Of a DNA stretch of 64,000 nucleotides, positions 3,623 to 21,845 are shown piece by piece (the first letter of the stretch is position 1; each line of letters starts with the position of its first letter). The stretch is from an uncultured Methanosarcinales archaeon (GTDB lineage: Archaea > Nanobdellota > Nanobdellia > Woesearchaeales > GW2011-AR9), in contig CAZWBB010000002.1 in assembly GCA_964632045.1 (NCBI GenBank), positions 12,907 through 76,906 of the forward strand, in the 5' to 3' direction. The position numbers were made by a program, and so were the translations under genes. The notes beneath the pieces were generated by a model that ran no database searches, had not been told where the DNA came from, and worked only from the letters and a program-made list of their open reading frames with translations.

Positions 3623-3624
3623 TT

Positions 3625-3632
3625 TTTATAAA
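3625..3632 (+). promoter_or_regulatory. Archaeal TATA-like box
   Basis: TTTATAAA about 28 nt upstream of ATG 3660. Confidence 0.55.
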
Positions 3633-3659
3633 GCAATTTCTTAGTCCCTTTCTGAAAAG

Positions 3660-4313
3660 ATGAGTAATTATGTAATAATACCTGCCCATAATGAAAGTGA
3701 AAATATTGAGCCAGTTATCACAGCTGCAAAGGAACATTGTGCTAATGTTATCGTAGTTGATGATGGTTCCGTGGATGATACTTTAAGGAGAGCAGAAGAG
3801 AGAGGGGCGGTCGTATTGAGGCATACTGTAAACCTGGGCAAAGGGGCTGCTTTGAAAACAGGTTGTGACTATGCTCTAACATTGGGTGCGGATAAGTTGG
3901 TTGTGATGGATGCAGATGGGCAGCACGAGGCAAAGGAGATTCCAAAATTTCTGGAAGCTTTACAGAATAGGGATATTGTTTTTGGATATCGCAAAAAGTC
4001 AAGTTCAATGCCCTTAGTGCTAAGATTTGGAAATGGGTTCATAAATACTGCTATGAATTCCCTGTTTGGCGTTAAGCTAACAGATACACAATGTGGTTAC
4101 CGGGCTTTCACAGCCGATGCTTACAGAAAGGTTCGCTGGTCAGCAAGCGATTATTACATGGAAACAGAAATGATAATAAAGACAGGGAAGAATCATCTCA
4201 AATACGTTGAAATGCCAACTGAGACGATTTACTCTGACCGATACAAAGGAACAACCGTGATTGACGGGATGAAGATTGTTCTAAGCATTGCACTATGGAG
4301 GTTCTTCAAATGA
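3660..4313 (+). CDS. GT2 polyprenol-phosphate glycosyltransferase (DPM1-like)
   Basis: IPAHNE, VVDDGSVD, NLGKGAAL, MDADGQH, DTQCGYRA motifs. Confidence 0.92.
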   Translation: MSNYVIIPAHNESENIEPVITAAKEHCANVIVVDDGSVDDTLRRAEERGAVVLRHTVNLGKGAALKTGCDYALTLGADKLVVMDADGQHEAKEIPKFLEALQNRDIVFGYRKKSSSMPLVLRFGNGFINTAMNSLFGVKLTDTQCGYRAFTADAYRKVRWSASDYYMETEMIIKTGKNHLKYVEMPTETIYSDRYKGTTVIDGMKIVLSIALWRFFK

Positions 4314-4681
4314 GACTTAGCACTACATTTTGGATACAGCTTCTTGGAATGATATTTGGAGCAGGTATGATGTACTTTACTTATGTGAGGTATAAGAGGA
4401 AAGAGCTGAGCAATTTTGAATTGTTATTATGGTTCTCGGGGTGGGTTGCCCTTATCCTGGTGGCGATTATCCCTTCCATCCTTGATTTTGTCATCGAACC
4501 GCTGAATTTTTATCGAAGGCTTGACTTCTTTGTAGTCTTAGGATTTTTTGTTCTGCTACTACTGGGTTTCTATAATTATGGTTTGGTTAAAGGAATGGAG
4601 AAGAAACTGGAGAAGTTCGTTAGACGTGAGGCGATGAGAAGACATAGGGAAGAAGTGGAAAAAGAGCACGAAATACGATGA
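4310..4681 (+). CDS. DUF2304-like small membrane protein
   Basis: 3 TM helices plus a C-terminal helical tail; typical partner of GT2s. ATG 4310 overlaps the GT2 stop (ATGA), so I prefer it to 4295. Confidence 0.75.
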   Translation: MRLSTTFWIQLLGMIFGAGMMYFTYVRYKRKELSNFELLLWFSGWVALILVAIIPSILDFVIEPLNFYRRLDFFVVLGFFVLLLLGFYNYGLVKGMEKKLEKFVRREAMRRHREEVEKEHEIR

Positions 4682-5829
4682 AAATTCTTTTTATTTGCGA
4701 GAATTATCTCCCGCACTATGGTGGGGCGGAGGTGGTATTCAAGAACCTGGCGGAGAATTTCGTAAAGAAGGATCATAAGGTCTCTCTGATCACCCATCGC
4801 CTTAAAGGAACAAGAGAGAAAGAAAATATTGGGGGGGTAAATGTTCATCGAGTAAATTCGTTCTTTTCCCGTTACATCTTTACATTCTTCTCTATACCTA
4901 AAGCACTTAAGTTGGCTCGGCAGCACGATATAGTTCAGACTACCACATTCAACGGTGCTTTTCCTGCCTGGCTGGCGGCAAAGCTTACCGGTAAACCGGT
5001 AGTACTAACCGTTCATGAAGTATGGGTAGGAAAGTGGAAGCAGGTCACCGGCTTCAATTGGTGGAAGAGTATGATGCACGATCTGTTGGAGAGATGCATC
5101 TATATGCTACCATTTGATAAGTATGTGTGCGTTTCGAATGCGACTAGGAAAGATTTGGCCGGGGTTGGCATCTCCGGAGACCGGGCGGTCACCATACACA
5201 ACGGAATGGATTACCAAGTGTGGGATACAGCTAATTTTAAAGAAGAAAGAATAAAAGAGATTCGGACAAGACTGGGATTAAATGAAAAGTTTGTTTATTT
5301 CTCTTGGGGTCGGCCTGGTGCATCGAAAGGATTTGAGTATGTAATCAAGGCTGTGCCCATAATTAAGATGAAGCTGCCAAATTCGCTTTTTCTCTTAATG
5401 TTGGGCTCTGCAAACAAATACAAAAAGAAATATAATCAGTTGATTAGACTCGTTAAAGAATTAAGGTTGGATGACTCCATAAAAATTATTCCATCAGTTC
5501 CATATGGGGAATTGGGAAATTACCTTTCGGCCGTTGACTGCGTAGTGGTCCCTTCCGTAGCTGAGGGTTTTGGCTACACAACTGTAGAGGCAGTGACTAT
5601 GGGAAAACCGGTAGTAGCAAGCGACGCGGGATCTATTCCGGAAGTCATTGGTGGTAGACATCTTCTGTTCAGGAGTAAGGATGTAATTGGGCTTGCTGAT
5701 GGGGTTGTAAAAGCTGCAAAAGGGGAATGTCGTAAAACTGCCATCAAGCGTTTTGACTGGGAGACGAGTGTACAAAGATATTTGGACATATATTTGGATT
5801 TTTTTGGTAATAATTATGTAACTCAATAA
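4678..5829 (+). CDS. GT4 glycosyltransferase
   Basis: GGAE N-terminus, EGFGYTTVEAVTMGKPVVAS C-terminal motif. Confidence 0.93.
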   Translation: MKILFICENYLPHYGGAEVVFKNLAENFVKKDHKVSLITHRLKGTREKENIGGVNVHRVNSFFSRYIFTFFSIPKALKLARQHDIVQTTTFNGAFPAWLAAKLTGKPVVLTVHEVWVGKWKQVTGFNWWKSMMHDLLERCIYMLPFDKYVCVSNATRKDLAGVGISGDRAVTIHNGMDYQVWDTANFKEERIKEIRTRLGLNEKFVYFSWGRPGASKGFEYVIKAVPIIKMKLPNSLFLLMLGSANKYKKKYNQLIRLVKELRLDDSIKIIPSVPYGELGNYLSAVDCVVVPSVAEGFGYTTVEAVTMGKPVVASDAGSIPEVIGGRHLLFRSKDVIGLADGVVKAAKGECRKTAIKRFDWETSVQRYLDIYLDFFGNNYVTQ

Positions 5830-5885
5830 AAAATAGGTAATTAAGTATCATAAACATTATATACCATATTTGGGAATCCTACTTT

Positions 5886-7109
5886 ATGAATGTTCTTTTT
5901 GTATCCGAGTATTATCCTCCAAAGATAATGGGTGGTGGGGAAATTAACTTGTCTCTTCTAGCTAACTCTCTTGCAGCCAAAGGATTAACTGTTTCTGTGC
6001 TTACTTCTTTCCATAAGGGGTTGAACCGTTATGAAATGAAGAAGGGAGTGCATATTTACCGTAGGCTGAAGACGGGGGCACGTGCAGATGGAATAATTGA
6101 TAATCTGAAACGGAGTCTACTTTTTCCTCAATCAGTGGAAAGAGAAGTGAAGAGGCTTAATCAAGAGATCAAGTTTGATCTGGTACATTTCATTGGTACA
6201 AGCGTTATTGCGGCGGCTGGATTGAAGCAAATTCGGAAACCCTTCTGTGCAACCATTGAAAGTTATCCTTCTCTCTGTCCTAAGGGGGATCGGATATATT
6301 TTGGAAAAAGAGAATGCAGATTCATTTGCTCATTTTCCAGGTTCATAGGATGTCAGGCATCATCAACTGAAATAGGTAAGATGAAGAATAAGTGGTATTT
6401 GAAGTATAATCCTTTATTCCTGATGTTTGTATATCAATATTGTCGTAGGCTTAATTGTGCGTTAAAAGAATGTAACTTGATCGCCATAAGTGAATATGTA
6501 AAGAAAGTATTGCGGCAGCATGGTCTTTCCAGTATGGTGGTAGGTAATGCCATCAATGTGGGAAAGTTTCGACCAGATAAGAAGAAAGAGAGGGGGAATA
6601 AGCCGAAGGTAATCTATCTGGGAAGCATAACAAAGTTCAAAGGTCCTCAAATCCTGCTGAATGCAGTCCGTGGAATCGATTGCAGGTGCGACCTGTATGG
6701 GGAGGGAGAGATGAAAGAGGAGCTGCAAGGGATGATTGACAGATTTTGTCTTGATGCAGAGATTCATCCTCCCGTTCCTTATGAAAAAGTGCCTTGCCTA
6801 TACGCTGGAAGCGACATTGTCGTTTTCCCTTCGATATGGCCGGAACCGTTTGGCAGGATTGCTATAGAAGCGATAGCTGCTGGGAAGCCAGTGATTGGCT
6901 CTGCAATAGGGGGAATTAAGGAGACGATAGCTGCTAGTTCGGGTATCCTTGTAGCACCGGGAAATGTTGAAGAGTTAAGAAAGGCAATCATCGCGGCAAA
7001 TGAAGTGGCCCATAAAGATGGTGGGAAGTATGTAGAGCAGAGATATGGTGAGCAGGTAATCACCAAAAAAATAATTGGATTCTATGAGAAAATACTGAAT
7101 AGTGGATAG
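5886..7109 (+). CDS. GT4 glycosyltransferase
   Basis: MGGGE N-terminus, EPFGRIAIEAIAAGKPVI motif, Cys-rich insert (CPKG...C...C...C). Confidence 0.93.
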   Translation: MNVLFVSEYYPPKIMGGGEINLSLLANSLAAKGLTVSVLTSFHKGLNRYEMKKGVHIYRRLKTGARADGIIDNLKRSLLFPQSVEREVKRLNQEIKFDLVHFIGTSVIAAAGLKQIRKPFCATIESYPSLCPKGDRIYFGKRECRFICSFSRFIGCQASSTEIGKMKNKWYLKYNPLFLMFVYQYCRRLNCALKECNLIAISEYVKKVLRQHGLSSMVVGNAINVGKFRPDKKKERGNKPKVIYLGSITKFKGPQILLNAVRGIDCRCDLYGEGEMKEELQGMIDRFCLDAEIHPPVPYEKVPCLYAGSDIVVFPSIWPEPFGRIAIEAIAAGKPVIGSAIGGIKETIAASSGILVAPGNVEELRKAIIAANEVAHKDGGKYVEQRYGEQVITKKIIGFYEKILNSG

Positions 7110-7117
7110 CTCTCCCA

Positions 7118-8572
7118 TTAATCATCCTGTATCTTCATCTTCGGATTTCCGTAGGGGAGTAGTGGATTAAGCAATTGTAATTTCTGGTCCATGTAAGAAA
7201 TATCTTCCTGGCTGAAGTGTTCTTTATAACCTCCCACTATTCCACGTCTCATCTTGTAGCTCTGTCTATCATTTGGATCCACAGCTTGTAGTCGGTGGTC
7301 TCCTTTGAATCTATTTCCTTTCTCCATAGCCAGCATATTCTTGAATGAGCTGTTTTCAACGGCTTTGTCGATGATTTCGTCGCTTATTGATATCCCTAGA
7401 AAATCTACCACTTTCCGTAATTCACGGCTTGGGTCATTGTGCAAATCTTCGTAAGTGATAAAGACAAAATCATCTTTCCTTTTTTGCATCTCGGCAGTCC
7501 AGAGATTCATGAACCCGATTGCCTGCTTGAGTGTGGATTCTTCTCTAATAAAAGAGGAGATGCCTTTCTGATAACGAAAGTTACGTCGTCTAGTCCATTC
7601 AAAGTAGAATGAGGCCATCACATCGCGTGGGTCCCTGGCCAGAAAGATTATTTTCTTGTTCCTGAACTTTCTCTCGATCTCCAGAGATCTTGGTCTTAAC
7701 TTTTTGCTTATTGCAGTTCTGGGGTCGGTAGCAATGTTGGGAAGGGATTTATCTCCAAGAGTTGTCTTGTAAAGATCAAGGTTTAATTTTGTTCCTTTTT
7801 TGAGGGATATGGTCTGAGCCAGCAACATCCTTATCCAAGTTCGTCCACTTTTTGGGAAGGATATTATATATGCATCAGCAATTTTACTGACAGCATAGTG
7901 ATAGGATTTCTGAACCAGTGCGGCGGTTAATATGCGACTGCGAATTTTTCCAATGGTTTTATTGTTGACTGGAGTTGGGTTATCACTATGCCTTCCCCCA
8001 GACTTTTCATTATGTTTTTTGCTTACAGGTTTCCCGCTTGGGATGACCGTAGACTGATATTGCATGATGTGGGTAAGAATCTGTTGCACATTTTCCTCCT
8101 CTTTATTTGATAGTGTATCAATTTTCAAGTCTGGATTTAAAGGCATTTGGTAAGGATTACTTTCAGAAAGTCCGATGTAATTCTCGATTTCTCCCCTCAG
8201 AGCTTTCTTGTACAGCCCTTTTGGGTCTCTCCGGATACATTCTACTAGTGGGGTGTTTATGAACAGTTCGGTGAACTCTGTACCGATAATTGAACGAGCC
8301 ATCTGTCGGTCCTCTGTATAAGGAGAAATGATAGGGACCAGGATGACATCAAATTCAGCTGATTTTTCTTTTGCCATCTCAGCAATCAACTGGTTGTTCT
8401 TTCTAATATCCTCACGAGAGAATCCAAGAGTTGTATGTAATGTTTCCCTAACCACATCACCATCTATAATCGAAACTCTCTTTCCCTGGTTCTCCAGCCT
8501 TTCCTTCACTTGAAGAGCTAAGGTGGTTTTTCCTGAGCCACTGAGGCCCGTGAACCATACTGTTTGGCCTAT
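7118..8572 (-). CDS. APS kinase (CysC)-sulfotransferase fusion; start non-canonical (ATA 8572) or via readthrough
   Basis: The ORF-track start (GTG 8509) omits the in-frame P-loop GQTVWFTGLSGSGKTT at about 8569-8522. DGDVVR and RDPKGLY are CysC motifs. The C-terminal domain has the sulfotransferase PAPS-binding motifs FPKSGRTW, RDPRDVMAS and RRGIVG. Confidence 0.85.
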   Translation of the reverse strand: MGQTVWFTGLSGSGKTTLALQVKERLENQGKRVSIIDGDVVRETLHTTLGFSREDIRKNNQLIAEMAKEKSAEFDVILVPIISPYTEDRQMARSIIGTEFTELFINTPLVECIRRDPKGLYKKALRGEIENYIGLSESNPYQMPLNPDLKIDTLSNKEEENVQQILTHIMQYQSTVIPSGKPVSKKHNEKSGGRHSDNPTPVNNKTIGKIRSRILTAALVQKSYHYAVSKIADAYIISFPKSGRTWIRMLLAQTISLKKGTKLNLDLYKTTLGDKSLPNIATDPRTAISKKLRPRSLEIERKFRNKKIIFLARDPRDVMASFYFEWTRRRNFRYQKGISSFIREESTLKQAIGFMNLWTAEMQKRKDDFVFITYEDLHNDPSRELRKVVDFLGISISDEIIDKAVENSSFKNMLAMEKGNRFKGDHRLQAVDPNDRQSYKMRRGIVGGYKEHFSQEDISYMDQKLQLLNPLLPYGNPKMKIQDD

Positions 8573-8578
8573 CTTATG

Positions 8579-10828
8579 TCACCTCACAAACACTTCTTCT
8601 CCTTTTTTTATCGCTTCCACAATAATCTTTGATATCTCAGGATGCATGAACCACTCTGGTAGGAACTCTCCTTTGTTTAATGTTTCTCTTGCCTGGGTGC
8701 CGCTGATGTGCATCTTTTCAAGTTCCTCTCCCTCCTCTGTTTCCGGCCCATGGATGTATTCTTTCTTCTTGTTTGAATAGAATACATTGCCGAATCTTAC
8801 CGGTTTAATTCCTATCTCTGGGAACTTGTCAAATATCTGGTGGGAGGCATTAGGGTGGTAGTAGTTGCCCACTCCTGTATGGTCTCTCCCCACAATAAAA
8901 TGGCTGCAGCCAAAATTCTTCCGGCAAAGAGCTGTGAAAATTGCTTCTCTTGGCCCAGCATATCTGGAAAAAGTTGAGAAAGTGGCAAATACGACCTTGT
9001 TCTTAGGATAGATATCCTTCACCATTTTCTCATAACTTTGGATGATATACTTTGAATTGAAATCCCCAGATTTTTTCTTGCCGATTATCGGGTGGACGAA
9101 CAGCCCATCACAGTTCTCTTTTTCCATCGCCTGAAGCTGGATGAATTCGTGACCTTTGTGGATAACATTCCTCGTATGGAAACCAACTACTTTTACCCAC
9201 CCTCGGTCTTCAAAAAGTCTTCTTACTTGTTTTGGAGCAAGCTCATATTCTTTGTAGGAGGAATCGTTTCTTTTTAGCAGGTCAATCTTACCTCCTAACA
9301 AAACAGGCTTCATCTCTGTAACCATTTTGACTCCGGGATGGTTTTGATCATTGGTGCAATAGAGTTTGTTGGCCATCTCTGTTTTGTCGAAATGATACCT
9401 GTCTTCAACATGCATGATAGCCATGATTTTGTCATTCTCATCAGTAAGAGCCACATCATCACCAACAGAAACCTTCATCTCCTCGGTAATATCAAGCACT
9501 AAGGGGATGGGCCAGACAATCCCATTGCTTAACCTAAGTTCATCCAACACTCCTTGGAAATCATCTCTACACATAAATCCTTCTAGCGGGCTGAAAGTGC
9601 CGATGGCAATCTGTTCGATATCCATCAGTTGTTCTTTTGTTAACTGGATTTTTGGAAAGCTACCGATCCCTTCCGGTAATGAGCCGATGAACCTGTCTAT
9701 CAGTTTTCCTCCATGGGGTTCGATCAGCGAATCAGATTCAAGATCTTCAGAAAGATAGTTCATATTGTCAATGCCTTGGAGCAGTTTTGAATGTTCAATC
9801 AGCTTGTTCATCATATTTATGCATCTCATGGGATACTTGCCGATGGCGGTCTCTGCTGACAAGATGAGGCCATCCGCTCCATCTAGTATAGTATTGATTA
9901 CGTCGTTAACTTCTGCTCTTGTGGGTTTCTTCTGTTTAATCATAGTCTCAAGAAGATTAGTCGCTACGAAAACGGGTGTTCCACTTTCTTTAGCTTTCTT
10001 GAGGATGATTTTCTGAATGAGGGGTACTTTCTCTACAGGTACTTCCTTACTCAGATCGCCTCGATCTAACAGGATACTATCTGACTTCTTGATAATATTG
10101 TCAATATCCCTGAGCGAATCCCGTGCTTCTACTTTTGAGATGATGTGCATGGCATTATTGGTCACCCTTCTCACTTCATCAATATCTTCTCCTTTTCGGA
10201 CAAAGGATACAGCAATGTGGCCTACTCCTTCGCTCAGACCGATGCGGATGGATTCTTTATCTTTCTCTGAAAGAACAGGAAGCTGGAAGTTGCTCTTTGC
10301 CGCAGACACTATAACTGTTGCTTTTTTATTTCCAAGATTTCCACTGGAGACGATCCTAGCTTGGATATATCCCTCTTTGATTGTGGAAACGTCGGACACT
10401 TTGAATATCAAAGTATCAAAATCTACAAAAATCAGATCACCGGGTTTCAATTGCTGCAAAATTGGGGGGGGCGTTAGACAGATTTTCTCTTTGTTGCCAA
10501 TTATTGGTGTATTGTAAACTCGTACGACATTTCCTTCATCAAACTGAATCTCATTTTTCTCAAGACTACCAGTCCGAATTTGAGACCCTTCAGTGTCGAT
10601 AATGAAAGGTATATTTGCTGCTTTTGCAAGATGGATGAAATGTCTTAAGTCTTCGGTGGAAGAATGGGACATATTTATTCGTACAAAATCAACTCCTTTG
10701 TCCTTGATTTTCTTAATATCAGCTTCAATGCTGGTAGCTGGACCCAGAGTCACAATTATTTTTGGTGTCATTTCACTCTTTTTTTGTCTATTATGACGTA
10801 CCTCACTGCCTACAGTAGGATTTTTCAC
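8579..10828 (-). CDS. Pyruvate kinase (barrel + B domain)-ATP sulfurylase (Sat) fusion; start GTG 10828 or ATG 10771
   Basis: PK motifs KIIVTLGP, RINMSH, SKVE, RGDL, PTRAEVND, LSAETAIGKYP, then Sat motifs PHGGKL, HTRNVIHKGHE, YAGPREA, FIVGRDH, ISGTQAR, in one uninterrupted frame. Confidence 0.92.
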   Translation of the reverse strand: MKNPTVGSEVRHNRQKKSEMTPKIIVTLGPATSIEADIKKIKDKGVDFVRINMSHSSTEDLRHFIHLAKAANIPFIIDTEGSQIRTGSLEKNEIQFDEGNVVRVYNTPIIGNKEKICLTPPPILQQLKPGDLIFVDFDTLIFKVSDVSTIKEGYIQARIVSSGNLGNKKATVIVSAAKSNFQLPVLSEKDKESIRIGLSEGVGHIAVSFVRKGEDIDEVRRVTNNAMHIISKVEARDSLRDIDNIIKKSDSILLDRGDLSKEVPVEKVPLIQKIILKKAKESGTPVFVATNLLETMIKQKKPTRAEVNDVINTILDGADGLILSAETAIGKYPMRCINMMNKLIEHSKLLQGIDNMNYLSEDLESDSLIEPHGGKLIDRFIGSLPEGIGSFPKIQLTKEQLMDIEQIAIGTFSPLEGFMCRDDFQGVLDELRLSNGIVWPIPLVLDITEEMKVSVGDDVALTDENDKIMAIMHVEDRYHFDKTEMANKLYCTNDQNHPGVKMVTEMKPVLLGGKIDLLKRNDSSYKEYELAPKQVRRLFEDRGWVKVVGFHTRNVIHKGHEFIQLQAMEKENCDGLFVHPIIGKKKSGDFNSKYIIQSYEKMVKDIYPKNKVVFATFSTFSRYAGPREAIFTALCRKNFGCSHFIVGRDHTGVGNYYHPNASHQIFDKFPEIGIKPVRFGNVFYSNKKKEYIHGPETEEGEELEKMHISGTQARETLNKGEFLPEWFMHPEISKIIVEAIKKGEEVFVR

Positions 10829-11237: not shown

Positions 11238-11966
11238 ATGTTACCGACAATTAAGCAGATTCGTGAGAGTTCCAAGACACGACGTTAGGGTTATGAATAC
11301 GTTTTAGATTATTTCGCAAATTATATAGTTAGACTATCCTTATTTTTTGGGATTAGTCCAACAGAACTTAGCTTTTTCTGGGTATTTGCCCAATTCTTTT
11401 CATGTCTATTATTTCTTAAAGGAGATTATTATTATTCATTGTTTGGGATAATAATCTTTCAGTTCATGTTTATTGTGGATTTGTCTGATGGAAAACTTTT
11501 TAGATTCAGAAAGTCCGGCAAGACATATCTTAAGCCATTATTCCCAAAATACTTAGACCGTATGGGCCATTTTGTTAACAACCCGTTCCTATTCTTATGT
11601 CTAGGTTTTGGCTTACTTCATCACAGTCAAACAATTTTTTATTTTTCGCTAGTTGCAGCTTTTTTTTATTTATTGAACAAAGCACTCGCGCTGAATCCTT
11701 CCTGGTACAAATCTCAGGAAGAAAGAGAAATGATCTCTTTGTTAGGTAAATTTTCCAGTATTCGGGACGGAAAATCACTAATCAAAAAGTTGATTTTTGA
11801 TTTTATCAGGATTGAACACATGGGTAATCTTTTGTTTCTTTTGATATTATTTAATTTGGCACATTATGCTATTATGGCTTATGCAATTATTCATTCTTTA
11901 GAGTTTTTACGTAAATTAATCTCTCAAGGGGTTATCTTGTTTGAAGAAGACAAGAAGAGAGGATAA
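11238..11966 (+). pseudogene. CDP-alcohol phosphatidyltransferase-like gene interrupted by an in-frame TAG (11286-11288)
   Basis: Frame from ATG 11238 reads MLPTIKQIRESSKTRR*GYEYVLDYFANYIVRLSLFFGISPTELS... and continues into the 11439 ORF. DLSDGKLFR...YLDRMGH is a degenerate DxxDGxxAR...GxxxD motif. Region is visibly AT-rich. Confidence 0.7.
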
Positions 11967-12047: not shown

Positions 12048-12782
12048 GTGCTTTCTATGGGGCATATGCGAGTCCGAAAAGAAGAATTACATCAAATCAA
12101 TAAGATCAAGTACCAAAAGAATGGGATAATTGGGATAATCACTCGCAGATACCTTTCGACAAGGATCAGCTCTTGGTTGGCATCGACCTCAATTACGCCT
12201 AACCAAGTCACTTTTTTCTCTTTGCTCGTAGGATTGACGGGTGTGTGTTTTCTTTCAACGGGTGGAAGAGTAAATCTGGTTATCGCGGGTGTACTCATCT
12301 TCATTTCTAAAATATTTGATGCAGTTGATGGTGAACTTGCCCGCCTCAAGAAGATGGAGACTGCACGGGGAGCATGGCTTGACGGGATCTCAGACCGTTT
12401 CAAGGAGAACCTGATTTTTTTTGGAATTGCGCTGGGTCTGTACAACCAGACTGGTAATGTGGTTGTCTGGTATTACGCTTTTATCGCTATCATCTCCATT
12501 CACATGCTTTCGATAGTCCTGGAACACACGGGGCGGATGGACAAGAAGATTCTGCAGAAAACGCAGGAAGATACCCTATTGGTAAAATTGGCCAGGAAGC
12601 TGGGAATTAAGCCGCAGTTTCTTGCTCTGCAGGCTGATACTTATCTTTTCATTACCTACATAGCAATCATGCTTAACCAGCTGATGTTCATCCTCTGGTT
12701 CTTCATGATTGTGATGAATCTTTACTGGCTTACTATTGTGGTCCTTGTGTATTTAAAAGGAAGTGGGATTGGGGAAAGATGA
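12048..12782 (+). CDS. CDP-alcohol phosphatidyltransferase family protein (start may be ATG 12057 or 12066)
   Basis: ITPNQVT and an intact DAVDGELAR...GAWLDGISD motif; TM helices. Confidence 0.9.
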   Translation: MLSMGHMRVRKEELHQINKIKYQKNGIIGIITRRYLSTRISSWLASTSITPNQVTFFSLLVGLTGVCFLSTGGRVNLVIAGVLIFISKIFDAVDGELARLKKMETARGAWLDGISDRFKENLIFFGIALGLYNQTGNVVVWYYAFIAIISIHMLSIVLEHTGRMDKKILQKTQEDTLLVKLARKLGIKPQFLALQADTYLFITYIAIMLNQLMFILWFFMIVMNLYWLTIVVLVYLKGSGIGER

Positions 12783-12792
12783 TTGAACACAG

Positions 12793-13815
12793 ATGATGGA
12801 TATAAGAATTTTTTATAATGCGGATGTTGAAGAAAGGAAGTATGAAGGTAGGTCGCAAACTTCTTTACTGCTCAAAGAGTTTCTTGAGAAGAAAGGATTC
12901 GTTTTTGTAGATCACCCAGCTAAAGCAGATATTATTAATTTTCATAGCAGCGGGATATTTGATTCATTCAAAGCTGCTAAATTGAAGAAAAAATATGGGG
13001 TTCCAGTAGTGTACTCATTATACTCACTTTCAAAGACAGAGCCATTCAACCATTTCAGGAACCATCTTGCTCAAAGATATTTTCTTAGACCAAGGAAGAC
13101 CAGTTTTGTTCTTAGTTATTCGGCCATATTGCCTCTAAGGTTGAGGGGATTCCGGTTGAATGAACTGGATGCAGTAGTTACCCCTTCCAATTTTGTCAAG
13201 GAAAGGCTGCATAACAATGCTTGTCTGATCCGGATTGGTATTGACACCAAGAAGTTTCGTCCTCTGCCTCGTGATTCTTTAGATGGGGGGAAGAAGCTGA
13301 GGGTAGGGTATTTTGGTCATCCCAGTGCCTATAAAGGGGTTCTTGATTTTGCCCGTGCTACAAGGTTGTTTCCAAAGCATTATGAGAGTCATATTCATAT
13401 ATCCGATACTTCTGTAAAAATGATCAGAAATCTAAAGAAGATTAATCCCAGCTTGCAGGTGCATGGACATATAGAAGACATGGCACATGCCTACAACTGG
13501 ATGGATGTCATCGTTCTTCCATACAGAAGCCATTTGGCAGGAGTAGCCAATCCTCTTGTACTTATTGAGGCAATGGCTTGTGGTAAAGCCATAGTGACTA
13601 CTGATTTTGATTATCTGAAAGAGATTGTAAAAGGTTCTGCGCTTATCATCAAGCCCTACTCTCCTGTGAAAATTGCTAAGGCCGTATCAATATTTGAGGA
13701 TGGGAGCATCAGGCAGAGATTTGGGGAGAGAGCCAGGAAAATAATCCTGGATGAATTTTGCCAGGAAAAGATGTTTGAGGATTACCTCAGTTTGTATAGG
13801 GACCTTACCATATGA
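12793..13815 (+). CDS. GT4 glycosyltransferase
   Basis: YFGHPSAYKG and PLVLIEAMACGKAIV motifs. Confidence 0.88.
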   Translation: MMDIRIFYNADVEERKYEGRSQTSLLLKEFLEKKGFVFVDHPAKADIINFHSSGIFDSFKAAKLKKKYGVPVVYSLYSLSKTEPFNHFRNHLAQRYFLRPRKTSFVLSYSAILPLRLRGFRLNELDAVVTPSNFVKERLHNNACLIRIGIDTKKFRPLPRDSLDGGKKLRVGYFGHPSAYKGVLDFARATRLFPKHYESHIHISDTSVKMIRNLKKINPSLQVHGHIEDMAHAYNWMDVIVLPYRSHLAGVANPLVLIEAMACGKAIVTTDFDYLKEIVKGSALIIKPYSPVKIAKAVSIFEDGSIRQRFGERARKIILDEFCQEKMFEDYLSLYRDLTI

Positions 13816-15296
13816 AATATCTAAATGCTCCTCCAGAGATTATGCAGGTAATATCTTTATTTCACGAGAATAATCTCTCCTACAATCTTTTCAAGTGCGA
13901 ACATATTTTTGCAGGTATGAATAAGAACCTTGATATCTTGTTTGCAAACAGGAAAGATTATGACAAAGCTGCTCTTCTGCTTGAGGGAGCAGGGTTTGTT
14001 CTCTATCTTCCAGAGAAAGTTGAAAAATATAAAGAGATGTATGTCCGCTTTGACCATGGACAGCTAACCAGAATCCATCTGCACAGGGAGATTGCCTGGC
14101 ATGGTCTGAAAGTGATGGATAAAAAGCACATTTTTGCTGGAGCTAAAGAGAAGAGCAAGGGTATCTTTGTCCCTTCAGATGAGGACCAGTTGTTGATTCA
14201 TGTTGCACATGTGATTTTTGAGAACTGGGAAATCAGCGATTACATAAAGAAGTTGATGGTTGGTCTCATGCAAAAGGATCTTGATTGGGATTACATAAGA
14301 AGGAGATTGCAGGAGTACGGATGGAAAGGCGTTTTTTATTATGTGCTAAAGTGCGCTAAGAAAGATCGGCATACTAGGAGAGGGACTTTCTTGCAGTGCT
14401 TTGTTCAAAGGGCCCTGCGAAGTCCTGTCAGCTGGCCCACTTTGTCAAAGAAATTCATTGATATCATTTTACGGAAGATCAGTTTGAGGAGGAAAGGGTG
14501 TTTGATAGCTTTGATTGGAGTCAATGGGAGTGGAAAAACGACGTTGGCAGGAGAAGTCTTGAAATCGTATCATCCACTGACTAAGCATTTTGGTGGGCAA
14601 ACAGGTTACTATTTTGGATGGTATCCCTTTTCATTTATCTCAAAATTGATTTCATCGCTTCTCAGAAAAAGTAACCGTAGGCTCTTTGAAGAGATGAACA
14701 AGGACAAAGAGGGTCAGGAGATGGATTCTACCAGGAAACAAAAGTTTAGTGTATTCCATGAATCAGTTCTATTTTACAATTATTTTGAGTATATGCTTCG
14801 GTTCTTCCTGCAAATTTATCCAAAATTGAGGGCAGGGGGGCTTGTTGTCACAGACAGATATTTCTATGACGTTTACGGACAATATAATTATTCACAGAAG
14901 AGTATTATCATCGGGACATTACTGCGTTTTTTCCCCAGGCCTGATTTTGTTTATGTGCTTGATGCTCCATTGGGGGTCATTTCTGGGAGGGCAAAAGAAC
15001 CAAATGTTTTGGAAAAGAAATGTGAAAGGGGGATAGATGTTGACGAAACTAATGTTGTTCCTGCTGAGAATAGAGTAATCAAGTCTAGAAAATATCTGGT
15101 GGGGCAGAGGAAGAGGTATCTTGAACTGCATGATCGGCTGAACAAAATGGTCGGTGATTCAAAACTGAATACAGAATCAAGATTGACTTTGTATTCAGAA
15201 TTATTAAATACTGATTGTGGTATTGAACATTCGGTAACGACAGTTATTAATTCGAGCTGGAAGTCGCTGGTGCAAAAGAAGAACTGTGGGGGATGA
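13812..15296 (+). CDS. Nucleotidyltransferase-fold + thymidylate-kinase-like P-loop fusion (copy 1)
   Basis: N-terminal KNLDILF...IHLH...PSDEDQLLIHVAH; C-terminal LIGVNGSGKTT, TDRY, PRPDFVYVLDAP. Confidence 0.7.
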   Translation: MKYLNAPPEIMQVISLFHENNLSYNLFKCEHIFAGMNKNLDILFANRKDYDKAALLLEGAGFVLYLPEKVEKYKEMYVRFDHGQLTRIHLHREIAWHGLKVMDKKHIFAGAKEKSKGIFVPSDEDQLLIHVAHVIFENWEISDYIKKLMVGLMQKDLDWDYIRRRLQEYGWKGVFYYVLKCAKKDRHTRRGTFLQCFVQRALRSPVSWPTLSKKFIDIILRKISLRRKGCLIALIGVNGSGKTTLAGEVLKSYHPLTKHFGGQTGYYFGWYPFSFISKLISSLLRKSNRRLFEEMNKDKEGQEMDSTRKQKFSVFHESVLFYNYFEYMLRFFLQIYPKLRAGGLVVTDRYFYDVYGQYNYSQKSIIIGTLLRFFPRPDFVYVLDAPLGVISGRAKEPNVLEKKCERGIDVDETNVVPAENRVIKSRKYLVGQRKRYLELHDRLNKMVGDSKLNTESRLTLYSELLNTDCGIEHSVTTVINSSWKSLVQKKNCGG

Positions 15297-16878
15297 AATG
15301 GATAAAGTAGATGAGTTTTTTTTGGGTGAATGGTCAAAAAGAAAGATTATTGATGGATCCTCTTTTGATGATCTCTTTAAGATCGGGGAAGTGCCCATGG
15401 GGTGGTTCTTTCAAAGAATCTTTGTGCCCCACATTGTCCCCAGATCATTAAATACTTTCGCTGAGATAGAAAAAGGTGATGAACTGAACTTACTACGTAG
15501 GACCAAGCTTGGGTCTACAGCAATCATTATGAAGCATTTTTTCTCATTTAATGAATTCAGGAAAATTAGATTTCTGCGAAAGAGTAGTTCGCGCTGTGAG
15601 GTTTCCCCCCGCGGCAACGTCCTTTTTTTAAGTTACACTAATCATATGCTTTCAGGCGGGAGAATTTTTCGAATACAGAATATTTTGAATGGTCTCATGA
15701 AACAGTCAGGATTGCAACCCGTAGTACTGTTTGCAGATCCTCTATCTAGCAGGGATTACAGGAAATTGGCCGGGTTTTATGCATTATATTGTCACTATGG
15801 AAAGTCTCTTGATAAAAAAGCGAAGATTTCAGCCAGTAGGCTACATAATCAATGGATAAATATCAAAGAGAGCACCAAATCGGATTTGTTCGTTAACAAA
15901 GGCAGGTCTCTCTGGCCATATCTCAAGCCGGCGTTTTCGTTTTTTTTCTCAAAGCAGTTTATTCACTTTCTTATACTGTACTTTGAGATGTCAAAGAAGG
16001 CCCTTGCTGATGGCAATATTAAAGTTGTGGTGACCACTTCACAGAATGGGATATTTGACCGGTGCATAATCGCTGCTGCCCAAGAAGTGGGTGTCCCTGT
16101 ACTAAGATTGCAACACGGGATTGGAGAAGAAATCGTACCACCAAGTAAATATGATAAATATTACAAACTGGTATTCAGTGATGATGTCCGTCAAAAACTT
16201 ATCGCAGCGGGCTGGGAGGAGAATAAGGTGATTGTTGTTGGTCCAACAATATTTGATGGGATCAGTACATATGTTGGCCAAAAGCAGAGAAAGGGTAGAA
16301 ACATATTGATCACAACCTCTCCTTTTGTGGAAACAAGTTTGCTGAGCAGAAAGAGGTATTTTTCTCTCATGGGCTCGTTGTTTAAGGCAATTGGAAGAAT
16401 AAAAGGTGCCAGGTTGATCGTCAAACTTCATCCTGTAGAGACTACCAATAGGGCAATAGATGGTTATCGTCAGATAATGGGAGAAGCTGGAGTAATGGAT
16501 GGGAAGATTGTGCTTGGGAGTTCTCCCAGAAAACAATACTATAGATTAGTACAATGGTGCGATGTTCTGATACATTTCGGCTCTACTACTGCATTGGAAG
16601 CGATGATTATTGATCGACCTACATTGATGATAAATCTGATGGATTGTAATTTCATGACGGGAGCCTTGGCAAACAAGGAATTGGGTGTGTTTGCCACCTA
16701 CAAAGATGATTTGAAAGCGGCAGTGGAAAAAGCATTGTTGGGAGAGGATAAATATCGAAGGAACAGCATTAGGTATGTGCAGAGAAAATGTGGAGTTGTT
16801 GATGGGAAAGCTTATCTAAATGTTGTGAAATTGATCAATGATTTTAAAGAGCACAAGCTCAATGATTCTCTGGCCTAA
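15286..16878 (+). CDS. GT-B-fold surface-carbohydrate transferase (capsule-synthesis / glycerophosphotransferase-like); candidate nonulosonate transferase
   Basis: LQHG, VVGPTIFD, VKLHPVE and STTALEAMIIDRP motifs. Confidence 0.6.
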   Translation: MGDEMDKVDEFFLGEWSKRKIIDGSSFDDLFKIGEVPMGWFFQRIFVPHIVPRSLNTFAEIEKGDELNLLRRTKLGSTAIIMKHFFSFNEFRKIRFLRKSSSRCEVSPRGNVLFLSYTNHMLSGGRIFRIQNILNGLMKQSGLQPVVLFADPLSSRDYRKLAGFYALYCHYGKSLDKKAKISASRLHNQWINIKESTKSDLFVNKGRSLWPYLKPAFSFFFSKQFIHFLILYFEMSKKALADGNIKVVVTTSQNGIFDRCIIAAAQEVGVPVLRLQHGIGEEIVPPSKYDKYYKLVFSDDVRQKLIAAGWEENKVIVVGPTIFDGISTYVGQKQRKGRNILITTSPFVETSLLSRKRYFSLMGSLFKAIGRIKGARLIVKLHPVETTNRAIDGYRQIMGEAGVMDGKIVLGSSPRKQYYRLVQWCDVLIHFGSTTALEAMIIDRPTLMINLMDCNFMTGALANKELGVFATYKDDLKAAVEKALLGEDKYRRNSIRYVQRKCGVVDGKAYLNVVKLINDFKEHKLNDSLA

Positions 16879-16898
16879 TATCTAGTGACATCGGCATT

Positions 16899-18281
16899 TC
16901 AAATATGCTCCCCTTTTTCTTCCAGGAACCGGACATTACTGTAGCGGAGATCTTTATAGTCTGAGATGACCCCTTCATCAAGGGCTTTTTTGATCTCTTG
17001 TATTCCGTCAACCAAGCTGTGATCAGGTTGGAAGCCAAGCGTTTCCCTGATTCTCTTGAAAGATACACGGTAGTTGCGCTTATCCACATCACGATCTTCA
17101 ATAAGTAATGATGCCGTTGGAATCTGCTGCTTCACCAATTCTCCAATTTGGTTGATAGTGTAGTTCTGTACTTCACTTCCCACATTGAAAACATTATTAG
17201 CAACTTTCTCCAACGGGGCTTCTAGAGATAAGATTATTGCTTTTGCCACATCGGCGACGTGGACGTTAGGTCTCCACTGGTCACCTCCAAAGATGGTGAT
17301 CTTACCTTCCTTAACCGCTTTTCCGGTAAGAGTATTAACTACTAAATCAAAACGTGCTCTAGGTGATAAACCATAGACTGTACTTAGCCTTAAAATAGTC
17401 GGAGAAAAATTTTCGTCACTCATCTCCCTGAGGATGTTTTCAGAGTTCAACTTCATCTTTGCATACAACGAAACCGGGTTCACGTGTGATTCTTCATCAA
17501 GAAGTTCTTCCCCTTTGGATGCCCCGTACACGCTGCAGGAAGAAAGGTATACCAAGCGATTGATTTGGTAATGTTTGCAGACTGAAGCTACAAGCATGGT
17601 TGCAAGATAGTTGACATCCTGTGTTGTTTTTGGATCTAGATCGCAAGCGGGGTCTCCTACAAGTTCGGCTAAATGTACTGCTGCATCAACATCTTTGACA
17701 CAGTTGGTCAGAGTTTCCACATGTCGTGTGTCCCCTTTGACGATCTCTAGGTTTGGATCACGAATGTCCTGCAGATGTTCCTTCCCGTAAATAAAAATGT
17801 CGAGTATTCTTACTTTGTATCCTTTTGACAGCAACTTCTTTACTAACACTGAACCAATGTATCCCCCACCTCCGATCACCAGGACTTTGTCTACCGGCTT
17901 GACTTTCAGAGTGCTCCTGGAGAGAAATGATAACCTGTTTACTTCCATCAATGCAAAATCTTGCACAACTTTATCTTTATTCACTATAGGGATACCCAGG
18001 AGCTTCTGTGCTTTGATAAGGTCAATTAGATAATTTTCTTCTGCATCGGTGAAACAGTATATTGGGTGATGGTTCATTATAGAGGATATTTCATCAGAGA
18101 TGTCATTCCCTTTGATGATTCCTCTTCTGATGTCTCCATCAGTGACTACACCAAGCAGTTTTCTATCATCATCTACGACCAGAGCAATTCTTAGCCCGGT
18201 TTTTCCAATGGTACGCATAACTTCTTTTATTGAAGCTTCTTTGTTTACAAGTAATTCATTCAAAGCTATCATTTTGTTCAC
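16899..18281 (-). CDS. CBS-pair + NAD-dependent epimerase/dehydratase (extended SDR) fusion
   Basis: N-terminal CBS (LVVD...GVVTDGDIRR), then GGGGYIG, SSCSVYG, YAKMK. Confidence 0.88.
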   Translation of the reverse strand: MNKMIALNELLVNKEASIKEVMRTIGKTGLRIALVVDDDRKLLGVVTDGDIRRGIIKGNDISDEISSIMNHHPIYCFTDAEENYLIDLIKAQKLLGIPIVNKDKVVQDFALMEVNRLSFLSRSTLKVKPVDKVLVIGGGGYIGSVLVKKLLSKGYKVRILDIFIYGKEHLQDIRDPNLEIVKGDTRHVETLTNCVKDVDAAVHLAELVGDPACDLDPKTTQDVNYLATMLVASVCKHYQINRLVYLSSCSVYGASKGEELLDEESHVNPVSLYAKMKLNSENILREMSDENFSPTILRLSTVYGLSPRARFDLVVNTLTGKAVKEGKITIFGGDQWRPNVHVADVAKAIILSLEAPLEKVANNVFNVGSEVQNYTINQIGELVKQQIPTASLLIEDRDVDKRNYRVSFKRIRETLGFQPDHSLVDGIQEIKKALDEGVISDYKDLRYSNVRFLEEKGEHI

Positions 18282-19863: not shown

Positions 19864-19960
19864 CGTTCTTCCGTCATTTGAATCATTATCATTTTATTAC
19901 GTCTTGGGTTTAATACCCCGTTGCTCTGCTGCGATTGGGATGGTGAATTTTTAGGTATTT

Positions 19961-21823: not shown

Positions 21824-21845
21824 CAGTTACGACTATTTGGGCCTG

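What the first reader, a model, noticed from the sequence alone, without database searches (positions are those of the whole stretch)
8579..10828. Pyruvate kinase fused to ATP sulfurylase: a possible self-fuelling PAPS supply for glycan sulfation
Seen: one ORF has a PK catalytic core (about 10771-9760; RINMSH, SKVE, RGD, AT, SAE residues kept; no C-terminal regulatory domain) joined to a complete Sat (about 9727-8582). Its monovalent-cation signature is non-canonical (DTEGSQIR versus DTKGPEIR or DLQGPKIR). Established: Sat and APS kinase each consume ATP, Sat is thermodynamically unfavourable, and APS kinase releases ADP, which is PK's substrate. Inference: the PK domain regenerates ATP locally from PEP to drive PAPS synthesis for the adjacent sulfotransferase. 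I know of no characterised enzyme with this architecture.
Basis: partly seen in the sequence, partly recalled or inferred. Interest (0 to 1): 0.85.

Follow-up and report, generated by a model that had tools for sequence, protein, structure and literature searches.

The report
Pyruvate kinase fused to ATP sulfurylase
One intact gene in this small archaeon joins a pyruvate-kinase catalytic core to the enzyme that activates sulfate; it belongs to a large, widespread family on which I found no published study, and it probably uses phosphoenolpyruvate to recycle ADP to ATP while the cell makes PAPS, the sulfate donor for sulfating surface sugars.

Summary
ORF 8579-10828(-), probably starting at ATG 10771 (730 aa), carries a PK barrel without the C-terminal domain, then a PUA_2 and an ATP-sulfurylase domain. 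It is not a chimera: at least 584 species genomes from DPANN archaea, CPR bacteria and many bacterial phyla carry the same design.

The PK part belongs to a nearly monophyletic clade that lacks the C domain. Its signature is D[TS]EGxQ / DRGDLS[KR] / ATNLLE, and all PEP-, metal- and nucleotide-binding residues are invariant. This clade occurs fused or adjacent to Sat, to APS kinase, or to both, so it behaves as a module of PAPS synthesis. APS kinase is present in 47 of 51 carrier genomes, so PK does not replace it. A canonical PK coexists in 16 of 51, so it is not merely the housekeeping PK.

In this genome the fusion is the only Sat and the only full PK barrel. It serves two sulfotransferase clusters.

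The best reading is a PEP-driven ADP scavenger and ATP regenerator for PAPS synthesis (confidence about 0.6). This matches in vitro cascades, which make almost no PAPS without PK/PEP. I found no paper on the family. The mechanism remains inference. The tool that finds sequencing runs was closed, so no read-level check was possible.

The parts
8579..10771 (-). PK-Sat fusion gene, 730 aa from ATG 10771. The longest ORF extends to GTG 10828. Stop codon TGA at 8579-8581.
   Evidence: (P0002 is 100% identical and 730 aa)
9821..10762 (-). Pyruvate kinase A+B (barrel plus lid) domain, residues 23-336 of the 749-codon ORF. It has no C-terminal (PK_C) domain. Signature: DTEGSQIR, DRGDLSKE, ATNLLETM.
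9725..9820 (-). Linker of about 32 residues between PK and PUA_2. It has lower conservation and lower pLDDT (64-66).
9272..9724 (-). PUA-like N-terminal domain of ATP sulfurylase (PF14306).
8615..9250 (-). ATP-sulfurylase catalytic domain (PF01747). It carries HTRNVIHKGH in place of QTRNxxHxxH and GRDHTG in place of GRDHAG.
7118..8572 (-). APS kinase-sulfotransferase fusion gene. APSK lies at about 8117-8572 and includes the P-loop GLSGSGKT. Sulfotransfer_1 lies at about 7181-7876. The only start placed before the P-loop is ATA at 8570-8572, 6 nt after the SD-like GAGGTGA (8579-8585). The gene is in frame with the PK-Sat gene across its TGA.
698..7109 (+). Glycan-assembly genes facing the sulfation genes: AglB/STT3 oligosaccharyltransferase (698-3622), GT2 (3660-4313), DUF2304 (4295-4681) and two GT4 genes (4678-5829, 5886-7109).
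12048..23768 (.). Rest of the glycan cluster: CDP-alcohol phosphatidyltransferase (12048-12782, also found next to the fusion in close relatives), a GT4, nucleotidyltransferase/kinase-like genes, and nonulosonic-acid-type sugar genes (CBS-epimerase, acetyltransferase-DegT, 2-epimerase-PIG-L, NeuB-formyltransferase).

Best explanation
The gene encodes a two-enzyme protein that belongs to PAPS synthesis for glycan sulfation. The C-terminal half is a working homo-oligomeric-type ATP sulfurylase (ATP + sulfate -> APS + PPi). The N-terminal half is a pyruvate kinase stripped of its allosteric/tetramerisation domain (PEP + ADP -> pyruvate + ATP).

APS kinase is encoded next door and again on contig C5. 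It converts APS + ATP to PAPS + ADP. The PK module removes that ADP and returns ATP. This has two effects. It keeps both ATP-consuming steps supplied, and it prevents the dead-end APS kinase-ADP-APS complex, so the unfavourable sulfurylase step is pulled forward through fast APS consumption. PAPS then feeds the sulfotransferase fused to APS kinase in the window and three sulfotransferase-like genes on contig C5. These decorate a surface or N-linked glycan; AglB and glycosyltransferases lie alongside.

Shown here: the domains, the conserved residues, the family's distribution and the gene neighbourhoods. Inferred: the catalytic activities, the ADP/ATP hand-over and the sulfated product.
For: (1) Domains score far above their cut-offs. 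The AF2 model is confident (pLDDT 89.8, pTM 0.83). The two halves superpose on solved Sat (8a8d, TM to target 0.92) and on PK structures.
(2) PK residues are invariant in 121 fusion proteins. They include the counterparts of rabbit-muscle R72/N74/S76, D112/T113, R119, K206, K269/E271, D295, T327 and E363, that is, the PEP, Mg and nucleotide-phosphate ligands.
(3) The PK domain belongs to a nearly monophyletic clade without the C domain. In that clade stand-alone, Sat-fused, APSK-fused and Sat-APSK-fused forms interleave.
(4) The contexts agree. In 43 loci with full flanks, 40 have APSK and/or a sulfotransferase within 6 kb. APSK is fused in 20 loci and lies directly downstream in 15. Stand-alone short PKs sit directly before APSK (L087, L089) or before Sat (L088, L099, L100). 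A PK-APSK fusion without Sat occurs on 17 contigs. ADP is a product of APSK only, so the PK-APSK pairing fits ADP recycling.
(5) APSK is present in 47 of 51 carrier genomes.
(6) The own genome has enolases for PEP supply, one Sat only, no full CysH/CysD, and two APSK and at least four sulfotransferase-like genes.
(7) There is an in vitro precedent. PAPS synthesis by PAPSS1 yields almost no PAPS and accumulates ADP unless PK/PEP is coupled, because of the APSK-ADP-APS dead-end complex (PMC9885120).
Against: No activity data exist for any member. The clade carries invariant changes next to the active site: K114E, P116S, E117Q, A292D, G296S, V/I297K/R and Q328N in canonical PK terms (my own numbering). 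These could alter the cation requirement or the substrate. Position 117 is neither the Glu of K+-dependent PKs nor the Lys of K+-independent PKs. The fusion partner is Sat, which releases PPi and not ADP, so fusion to Sat specifically is not explained by ADP recycling alone. The linked Sats also carry changes in the motifs reported to contact sulfate (Q->H, A->T), which hints at co-adaptation I cannot interpret. PK recovers only one of the two ATP used per PAPS.
Confidence: 0.6

Rival explanations
1. The PK-like domain keeps PEP chemistry but has a changed partner substrate or a direct energy-coupling role. It might phosphorylate another nucleotide of the PAPS cycle (AMP, PAP, APS or an NDP other than ADP). 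Or it might hand ATP directly to a co-evolved sulfurylase site, making the protein an obligately PEP-dependent sulfate-activating enzyme.
For: The clade has invariant, clade-specific substitutions around the active site. All PK-linked Sats, fused or split, carry HTRN / GRDH[T/S/A]G in place of QTRN / GRDHAG, whereas the nearest unlinked Sats carry Q/A. The fusion is most often to Sat, which does not make ADP. The AF2 pTM of 0.83 suggests a defined inter-domain arrangement.
Against: All residues that bind the nucleotide phosphates in canonical PK (R119, K206, N74) are kept. APSK is present in 47 of 51 carrier genomes and is often fused to the same protein, so PK does not replace APSK. PK-APSK fusions without Sat exist, so the coupling is not specific to Sat. 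One stand-alone Sat with the H/T signature (L101) has no PK in the 6.3 kb fetched around it.
Confidence: 0.17
2. It is simply the organism's glycolytic pyruvate kinase that happens to be fused to Sat (a Rosetta-stone fusion for co-expression), with no special role in sulfation.
For: The own genome has no canonical PK with a C domain, only this barrel and two weak PK-like ORFs. In all, 35 of 51 carrier genomes lack a PK_C hit. The genome has enolase and PpsA/PPDK-like genes.
Against: A canonical PK coexists with the fusion in 16 of 51 genomes, including most of the large ones. The fusion is patchy among close relatives (6 of 24 same-family genomes), as expected for an accessory gene. The clade is found almost only beside Sat, APSK or sulfotransferase genes. 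Loss of the allosteric domain fits a dedicated enzyme better than a flux-controlling one.
Confidence: 0.1
3. The PK domain is non-catalytic. It would act as a sensor of PEP or energy charge, or as an oligomerisation scaffold regulating Sat, as the APS-kinase-like domain does in fungal ATP sulfurylase.
For: There is a precedent for a degenerate kinase domain serving as an allosteric module in fungal Sat (own knowledge; structures 1i2d, 1m8p appear). Loss of PK_C removes the usual tetramer interface.
Against: Every catalytic residue is invariant across 121 sequences sharing only 56-73% identity and across the wider clade. Pseudo-enzymes normally lose such residues.
Confidence: 0.05
4. It is an assembly or gene-calling artefact: two separate genes joined by a chimeric contig or a missed stop or frameshift.
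For: None found.
Against: There is one uninterrupted frame. The architecture is colinear in more than 100 database proteins and at least 584 species genomes from unrelated studies.
Confidence: 0.01

Closest known systems
Bifunctional PAPS synthases (Sat-APS kinase fusions: Aquifex aeolicus 2gks, metazoan PAPSS1/2; NCBIfam NF004040)
   Same: Both use a homo-oligomeric-type ATP sulfurylase joined in one chain to another enzyme of PAPS synthesis. Many relatives of the window protein are PK-Sat-APSK triple fusions. The window's Sat/APSK junction is colinear with those triple fusions apart from one TGA.
   Different: An extra N-terminal pyruvate kinase module is present, and I found no described PAPS synthase with one. 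In the window APSK is a separate reading frame fused to a sulfotransferase. NF004040 scores 295 bits against a cut-off of 669.
Stand-alone ATP sulfurylase Sat of Methanothermococcus thermolithotrophicus (PDB 8a8d) and Thermus thermophilus (1v47)
   Same: These are the best sequence and fold matches for residues 368-738 (326 and 275 bits, TM to target 0.92). They share the PUA-like plus catalytic domain layout and the HxxH motif.
   Different: The window's Sat has HTRN in place of QTRN and GRDHTG in place of GRDHAG, and it carries the PK module.
Canonical pyruvate kinase (e.g. Geobacillus stearothermophilus 2e28, E. coli PykF 1pky)
   Same: It has the A-domain barrel and B-domain lid, and all catalytic, Mg and nucleotide-phosphate ligands (205 bits).
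   Different: It has no C-terminal allosteric/tetramerisation domain. The cation-site motif DTEGSQIR fits neither the K+-dependent (E117) nor the K+-independent (K117) class. It also has DRGDLSKE for ARGDLGVE and ATNLLE for ATQMLE. It scores just under the TIGR01064 equivalog cut-off.
CysDN, the GTPase-coupled sulfate adenylyltransferase of E. coli (own knowledge), and engineered PK/PEP-coupled PAPS cascades (PMC9885120)
   Same: These are functional analogues: an auxiliary energy-releasing reaction is coupled to the unfavourable activation of sulfate. The engineered cascade uses exactly PK + PEP to remove ADP and restore ATP.
   Different: CysDN is unrelated in sequence and uses GTP hydrolysis on the sulfurylase itself. 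The PK/PEP cascade is a laboratory mixture of separate enzymes, not a natural fusion.

Membership tests
Pyruvate kinase (EC 2.7.1.40; PF00224 + PF02887; TIGR01064) | A-domain TIM barrel with inserted B (lid) domain | tested here: met
   PF00224 scores 257.9 bits over profile positions 5-327 of 328. The fold matches PK structures.
Pyruvate kinase (EC 2.7.1.40; PF00224 + PF02887; TIGR01064) | Catalytic and ligand residues: R72, N74, S76, D112, T113, R119, K206, K269, E271, D295, T327, E363 (rabbit-muscle numbering, own knowledge) | tested here: met
   The alignment to 2e28 and 1pky finds every counterpart. All are invariant in 121 family members: R50, N52, S54, D78, T79, R85, K169, K232, E234, D258, T290, E326.
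Pyruvate kinase (EC 2.7.1.40; PF00224 + PF02887; TIGR01064) | C-terminal domain (PK_C), which carries the tetramer interface and the allosteric site | tested here: not met
   No PF02887 hit. The PUA_2 domain of Sat follows after a linker of about 32 residues.
Pyruvate kinase (EC 2.7.1.40; PF00224 + PF02887; TIGR01064) | Monovalent-cation class residue: Glu117 (K+-dependent) or Lys117 (K+-independent) | tested here: not met
   The residue is Gln (DTEGSQIR) and is invariant in 121 of 121 sequences. The same holds across the wider clade.
Pyruvate kinase (EC 2.7.1.40; PF00224 + PF02887; TIGR01064) | Score over the curated equivalog cut-off | tested here: not met
   TIGR01064 scores 300.8 bits against a cut-off of 306.4. 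NF004491 scores 302 against 432.
Pyruvate kinase (EC 2.7.1.40; PF00224 + PF02887; TIGR01064) | PEP + ADP -> pyruvate + ATP activity | not testable with these tools
   This needs an enzyme assay.
Homo-oligomeric ATP sulfurylase Sat (PF14306 + PF01747; TIGR00339, NF003166) | PUA-like plus catalytic domain, with a score over the curated cut-offs | tested here: met
   NF003166 scores 427.2 (cut-off 387) and TIGR00339 scores 361.9 (cut-off 322.95). The match to 8a8d is 326 bits with TM 0.92.
Homo-oligomeric ATP sulfurylase Sat (PF14306 + PF01747; TIGR00339, NF003166) | Active-site motifs QxRN, HxxH and GRDHAG | tested here: inconclusive
   HxxH is present as HKGH. QxRN reads HTRN and GRDHAG reads GRDHTG. 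The same changes occur in all PK-linked Sats examined. Their effect on the anion site is unknown.
Bifunctional Sat/APS kinase PAPS synthase (NF004040) | Sat and APS kinase in one polypeptide | tested here: not met
   A TGA at 8579-8581 ends the Sat frame. APSK follows in the same frame but as a separate gene fused to a sulfotransferase. NF004040 scores 295 against a cut-off of 669. Many relatives do meet this feature.
PK-Sat fusion family (no published description found; Pfam architecture PK + PUA_2 + ATP-sulfurylase) | Colinear three-domain architecture with the PK signature D[TS]EGxQ / DRGDLS[KR] / ATNLLE and the Sat signature HTRN | tested here: met
   The window protein shares 56-73% identity over 97% of its length with 120 such proteins. 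Signatures were checked.
PK-Sat fusion family (no published description found; Pfam architecture PK + PUA_2 + ATP-sulfurylase) | Neighbourhood of APS kinase and/or PAPS-type sulfotransferase | tested here: met
   The window has an APSK-sulfotransferase gene directly downstream. Across the family, 40 of 43 full-flank loci have such a neighbour.

The most novel reading that the evidence does not exclude
PEP-driven sulfate activation may be a third natural strategy for forcing the uphill ATP sulfurylase reaction, beside CysN GTPase coupling and pyrophosphatase/APS-kinase pull. On this reading, the PK clade without the C domain and the H/T-type Sat have co-evolved into an obligately coupled complex. 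That complex would be fused or split, with or without APSK. Adenine nucleotide would be used almost catalytically and handed between sites. The unusual cation-site residues (E114/Q117 plus a new Lys/Arg in DRGDLS[KR]) would make the PK independent of free K+ or responsive to the sulfurylase.
Probability: 0.2. Interest if true: 0.8.

Novelty: new variant of a known kind. Interest (0 to 1): 0.6.

Why it matters
PAPS is the universal sulfate donor. Making it costs two ATP, and the first step is strongly unfavourable. Two natural solutions are described: GTP hydrolysis (CysDN), and product removal by pyrophosphatase and APS kinase.

A natural sulfate-activating enzyme with a built-in PEP-driven ATP regenerator would add a third solution. 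It would mirror what enzymologists do by hand when they couple PK/PEP to PAPS cascades. It could also give biotechnology a ready-made, compact PAPS generator.

The family is common in DPANN archaea and CPR bacteria. These organisms have small genomes, and many of the carrier genomes examined have no other pyruvate kinase. The family therefore also bears on how such cells budget energy for decorating their surfaces. It occurs in at least one cultured bacterium too, which makes the idea directly testable.

Tried and rejected
(1) Chimera or frameshift at the junction: rejected because the same architecture recurs.

(2) 'PK replaces a missing APS kinase', the bold reading in earlier scan notes: rejected as a general rule. 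Of 51 carrier genomes, 47 have a strong PF01583 hit, and APSK is often fused to or directly downstream of the fusion. The own genome has two APSK genes.

(3) UGA read-through giving a PK-Sat-APSK-sulfotransferase giant: considered, because the frames are continuous and the junction is colinear with triple fusions. I judge it less likely than separate initiation. ATA 8570-8572 sits exactly where relatives' APSK genes start (MGxVxWFTG), and it follows a GAGGTGA Shine-Dalgarno-like site by 6 nt. Long ORFs under table 11 show no sign of TGA recoding. This remains unresolved without reads.

(4) Proteins of 600-710 aa that seemed to lack Sat motifs were checked for new fusion partners. They are fusions whose Sat match ends at about profile position 120 of 212, most likely truncated gene calls at contig ends.

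(5) My first iterative profile searches of the neighbourhoods drifted through multidomain proteins. I redid them at domain level.

(6) Three literature searches for the architecture found no paper describing it; a fourth found only the in vitro PK/PEP cascade. The Nitrospinota paper does not mention it.

(7) Distances in the AF2 model, for example whether the new Lys261 reaches the K+ site, could not be measured because coordinates are not exposed.

Full report
**1. The observation**

The minus-strand ORF 8579..10828 is open for 749 codons.
- Pfam places a pyruvate kinase barrel at residues 23-336 (257.9 bits, essentially the whole 328-position profile). A PUA_2 domain lies at 369-519 and an ATP-sulfurylase domain at 527-738. 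There is no PK_C.
- NCBIfam puts the C-terminal half over the curated cut-offs for sulfate adenylyltransferase (NF003166 at 427 against 387; TIGR00339 at 362 against 323).
- The N-terminal half scores just under the pyruvate kinase equivalog cut-off (TIGR01064 at 300.8 against 306.4), as expected for a PK without its last domain.
- The identical database protein and all homologues start at the Met encoded by ATG 10771, so the gene is most likely 8579-10771, 730 aa.

**2. It is not an artefact and not unique**

A search of 5.8 billion proteins returned 120 listed hits, all with the same three Pfam domains, at 56-73% identity over 97% of the length. Some carry an added C-terminal APS kinase and reach about 920-940 aa.

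The loci come from:
- Woese-, Pace- and Nanoarchaeia.
- Many Patescibacteria/CPR.
- Chloroflexota, Acidobacteriota, Planctomycetota, Omnitrophota, NC10, Gemmatimonadota, Latescibacterota, Myxococcota and Bacteroidota.

The junction is colinear in an alignment of 102 sequences.

**3. The PK half**

Alignment to solved PKs (2e28, 1pky) and a 121-sequence family alignment show that every PEP, Mg2+ and nucleotide-phosphate ligand is present and invariant. In the numbering of the 749-codon ORF these are R50, N52, S54, D78, T79, R85, K169 (lid domain), K232, E234, D258, T290 and E326.

The family also has its own invariant changes beside the active site:
- DTEGSQIR for DTKGPEIR. Position 117 is Gln, neither the Glu of K+-dependent PKs nor the Lys of K+-independent PKs.
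- DRGDLSKE for ARGDLGVE.
- ATNLLE for ATQMLE.
- L(A/S)AETA for LSGETA.

An exhaustive HMMER search with the PK domain against 1.84 billion cluster representatives showed that the top hits, about 110, nearly all carry this signature. Canonical PKs of 470-480 aa (DTKGPE or DLQGPK, ARGDLGVE, ATQML) appear only from about 215 bits downward.

On a tree of 142 PK domains the signature needs only two changes, so the clade is nearly monophyletic. Within it, stand-alone short PKs (324-376 aa) and fused forms interleave, with at least 10 switches forced by well-supported branches. Fusion and fission have therefore happened repeatedly.

**4. What the clade keeps company with**

I ran domain-level iterative profile searches on the 83 fetched loci. 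Among 43 loci with at least 4.5 kb on both sides:
- 33 have a PAPS-type sulfotransferase, 28 an APS kinase and 11 a CysQ-like phosphatase.
- 40 have APSK and/or a sulfotransferase.
- Across all 83 loci, APSK is fused to the same protein in 20 and lies directly downstream on the same strand in 15.

Close relatives (70-72% identity) show this order: CDP-alcohol transferase, PK-Sat, small P-loop kinase, sulfotransferase, CysQ-like phosphatase.

Stand-alone members of the PK clade sit directly in front of APS kinase (L087, L089). A 533-aa PK-APSK fusion without Sat, seen on 17 contigs, lies beside two sulfotransferases (L090, L091). A sister group of short PKs (DxxGAEIR, DRGDLGAE) sits directly in front of a separate Sat, followed by APSK in L099 and L100 (L088, L099, L100).

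The module thus pairs with Sat, with APSK, or with both, fused or split. It behaves as a component of PAPS synthesis as a whole.

**5. Two whole-genome tests**

- PF01583 (APS kinase) gives a strong hit in 47 of 51 fusion-carrying genomes. The four exceptions are small MAGs. The PK-like domain is therefore not a substitute for APS kinase.
- PF02887 (PK_C, marking a canonical PK) is present in 16 of 51, mostly the larger genomes. So the fusion is a dedicated paralogue where a housekeeping PK exists. In most DPANN/CPR carriers it is the only PK.

Among the window's own relatives the genomes are 0.7-1.7 Mb; one of them is the record behind L017, a Woesearchaeota MAG. The fusion occurs in 6 of 24 same-family genomes, a patchy, accessory distribution.

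**6. This genome**

- The fusion is the only Sat and the only full-length PK barrel.
- Two weak PK-like ORFs of 299 and 346 aa match only parts of the profile.
- Enolase (two copies) and two PEP-utilising enzymes (787 and 914 aa) are present, so PEP is available.
- Only a 46-residue fragment matches PAPS_reduct, so there is no sign of assimilatory reduction. PAPS is made for sulfation.
- There are two APS kinases. One lies next to the fusion. The other is a 197-aa CysC on contig C5, flanked by three sulfotransferase-like genes and glycosyltransferases.
- A CysQ-like gene lies on the same contig, 2.7 kb beyond the window's end.

The PK-Sat protein must therefore supply APS to both clusters. Around it in the window are AglB/STT3, GT2, GT4 and nonulosonic-acid-type sugar genes. 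The likely product is a sulfated surface or N-linked glycan; this is inference.

**7. Mechanism**

The most economical reading runs as follows. Sat makes APS. APS kinase makes PAPS + ADP. PK converts ADP + PEP to ATP + pyruvate.

Besides saving ATP, this removes ADP. In characterised APS kinases ADP traps the enzyme in a dead-end enzyme-ADP-APS complex. A published cascade with human PAPSS1 made almost no PAPS and accumulated ADP unless PK/PEP was coupled (PMC9885120). Faster APS consumption in turn pulls the unfavourable sulfurylase equilibrium.

The fusion does not deal with PPi, and it recovers only one of the two ATP spent, so 'self-fuelling' is too strong. I put this reading at about 0.6.

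**8. What keeps the rivals alive**

The active-site-adjacent substitutions in PK are invariant. Every PK-linked Sat, fused or split, has HTRN / GRDH[T/S/A]G, where the nearest unlinked Sats (P0497, P0504) have QTRN / GRDHAG. By my recollection of the yeast enzyme, these positions contact the sulfate group.

Three of four stand-alone H/T-type Sats looked up have a short PK in the locus: directly upstream in two, and as a Phosphodiest-PK fusion downstream in one. The fourth has none in the 6.3 kb seen.

This hints at co-adaptation of the two active sites, which simple ADP recycling does not require. An altered acceptor or direct coupling therefore cannot be excluded (about 0.17). The other rivals are a merely housekeeping PK (about 0.1), a non-catalytic regulatory domain (about 0.05) and an artefact (about 0.01). 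The co-occurrence data, the residue invariance and the recurrence respectively argue against them.

**9. Structure**

AlphaFold2 with a 102-sequence alignment gives a confident model (mean pLDDT 89.8, pTM 0.83), with a lower-confidence linker at about residues 330-350 of the 730-aa protein. In a Foldseek search of the PDB, no entry covers both halves: TM normalised by the query is at most 0.49, and Sat and PK structures match separately. No solved structure has this architecture.

**10. Literature and novelty**

Three full-text searches for the architecture found no paper describing a PK-Sat or PK-APSK protein; a fourth found only the in vitro PK/PEP cascade. Public records call these proteins 'sulfate adenylyltransferase' or 'pyruvate kinase'.

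Earlier notes of this scan reached the same reading on other genomes. They are not independent evidence, and I re-tested the claims I use.

I file the gene as a new variant of a known kind: a multifunctional sulfate-activating enzyme. The window's gene is one more member of a large family on which I found no publication.

**11. A cultured handle**

[Flexibacter] sp. ATCC 35103 carries a 925-aa PK-Sat-APSK (49% identity). Overlapping stops and starts suggest it is translationally coupled to a 290-aa ORF and to the terminal module of an NRPS with a thioesterase domain. The strain is the described producer of the monobactam SQ 28,332 (PMC9248904). Monobactams carry an N-sulfonate (own knowledge). 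That this locus is the monobactam cluster is inference. It offers a direct genetic and biochemical test.

**12. The neighbouring gene**

The APSK-sulfotransferase frame continues the PK-Sat frame across a single TGA (8579-8581). The 23 codons before the first canonical start (GTG 8509) encode the essential P-loop. The junction EEVFVR*HKIGQTVWFTGLSGSGKTT is colinear with triple fusions.

ATA 8570-8572 sits exactly where separate APSK genes of relatives begin (MGKVVWFTG...), and it follows GAGGTGA by 6 nt. The most likely explanations are initiation at ATA, or an ATG that reads ATA through mutation or sequencing error. Read-through is the alternative. Either way, the stand-alone CysC on C5 gives the genome a second APS kinase.

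Noticed in passing
window 8509-8585 (minus strand): The APS kinase-sulfotransferase gene has no ATG/GTG/TTG before its P-loop. It is in frame with PK-Sat across one TGA. ATA 8570-8572 follows an SD-like GAGGTGA by 6 nt and aligns with the start Met of relatives' APSK genes. The junction is colinear with PK-Sat-APSK triple fusions.
   Followed up: partly
window 16899-23768: The sugar-biosynthesis genes here are unusually often fused: CBS + NAD-epimerase (16899-18281), hexapeptide acetyltransferase + DegT aminotransferase (18256-19863), UDP-GlcNAc 2-epimerase + PIG-L deacetylase (19961-21823), and NeuB + formyltransferase (21846-23768). This suggests a modified nonulosonic acid pathway.
   Followed up: no
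own genome, contig C5:31000-39500 (locus L096 3000-11500): There is a second sulfation cluster. It has three sulfotransferase-like genes (311, 272 and 255 aa) around a canonical 197-aa APS kinase, a GT2-radical SAM/SPASM fusion (661 aa), and further GT2 and GT4 genes. It has no Sat of its own, so it depends on the window's PK-Sat.
   Followed up: partly
own genome as a whole: At 2.2 Mb the assembly is about twice the size of its same-family relatives (0.7-1.5 Mb). It has two enolase genes, one with an in-frame TAA. The cause could be a mixed bin, a duplication or a genuinely large genome.
   Followed up: no
own genome C42:13833-14732 and C12:29939-30979 (L097 1334-2233, L098 1440-2480): Two ORFs of 299 and 346 aa match only parts of the PK barrel profile (52.7 and 40.6 bits) and nothing else in Pfam. 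They are PK-like TIM-barrel proteins of unknown role.
   Followed up: partly
L088 1766-5007, L099 1501-2925, L100 1580-2968 and 5670-7094, L102 5471-9161: In DPANN-type loci the short PK, Sat and usually APSK are separate genes, and no PAPS-type sulfotransferase is visible. There, genes of the alkaline-phosphatase-superfamily family PF01663 (Phosphodiest) lie directly beside the PK. In L102 one of them is fused to a PK (786 aa). Their role in this pathway is unknown.
   Followed up: no
L077 1-8772 ([Flexibacter] sp. ATCC 35103): An NRPS terminal module (C-A-T-TE) is followed by a 290-aa ORF without Pfam hits and by a PK-Sat-APSK triple fusion (925 aa), with overlapping stops and starts. The strain is a described monobactam producer, so this may be a dedicated PAPS supply for N-sulfonation.
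   Followed up: partly
window 11439-11966 (+): A 175-aa ORF between the PK-Sat gene and the CDP-alcohol phosphatidyltransferase has no Pfam match.
   Followed up: no
P0141 (478 aa, metagenomic): A member of the same PK clade is fused to a CBS domain in place of Sat or APSK.
   Followed up: no
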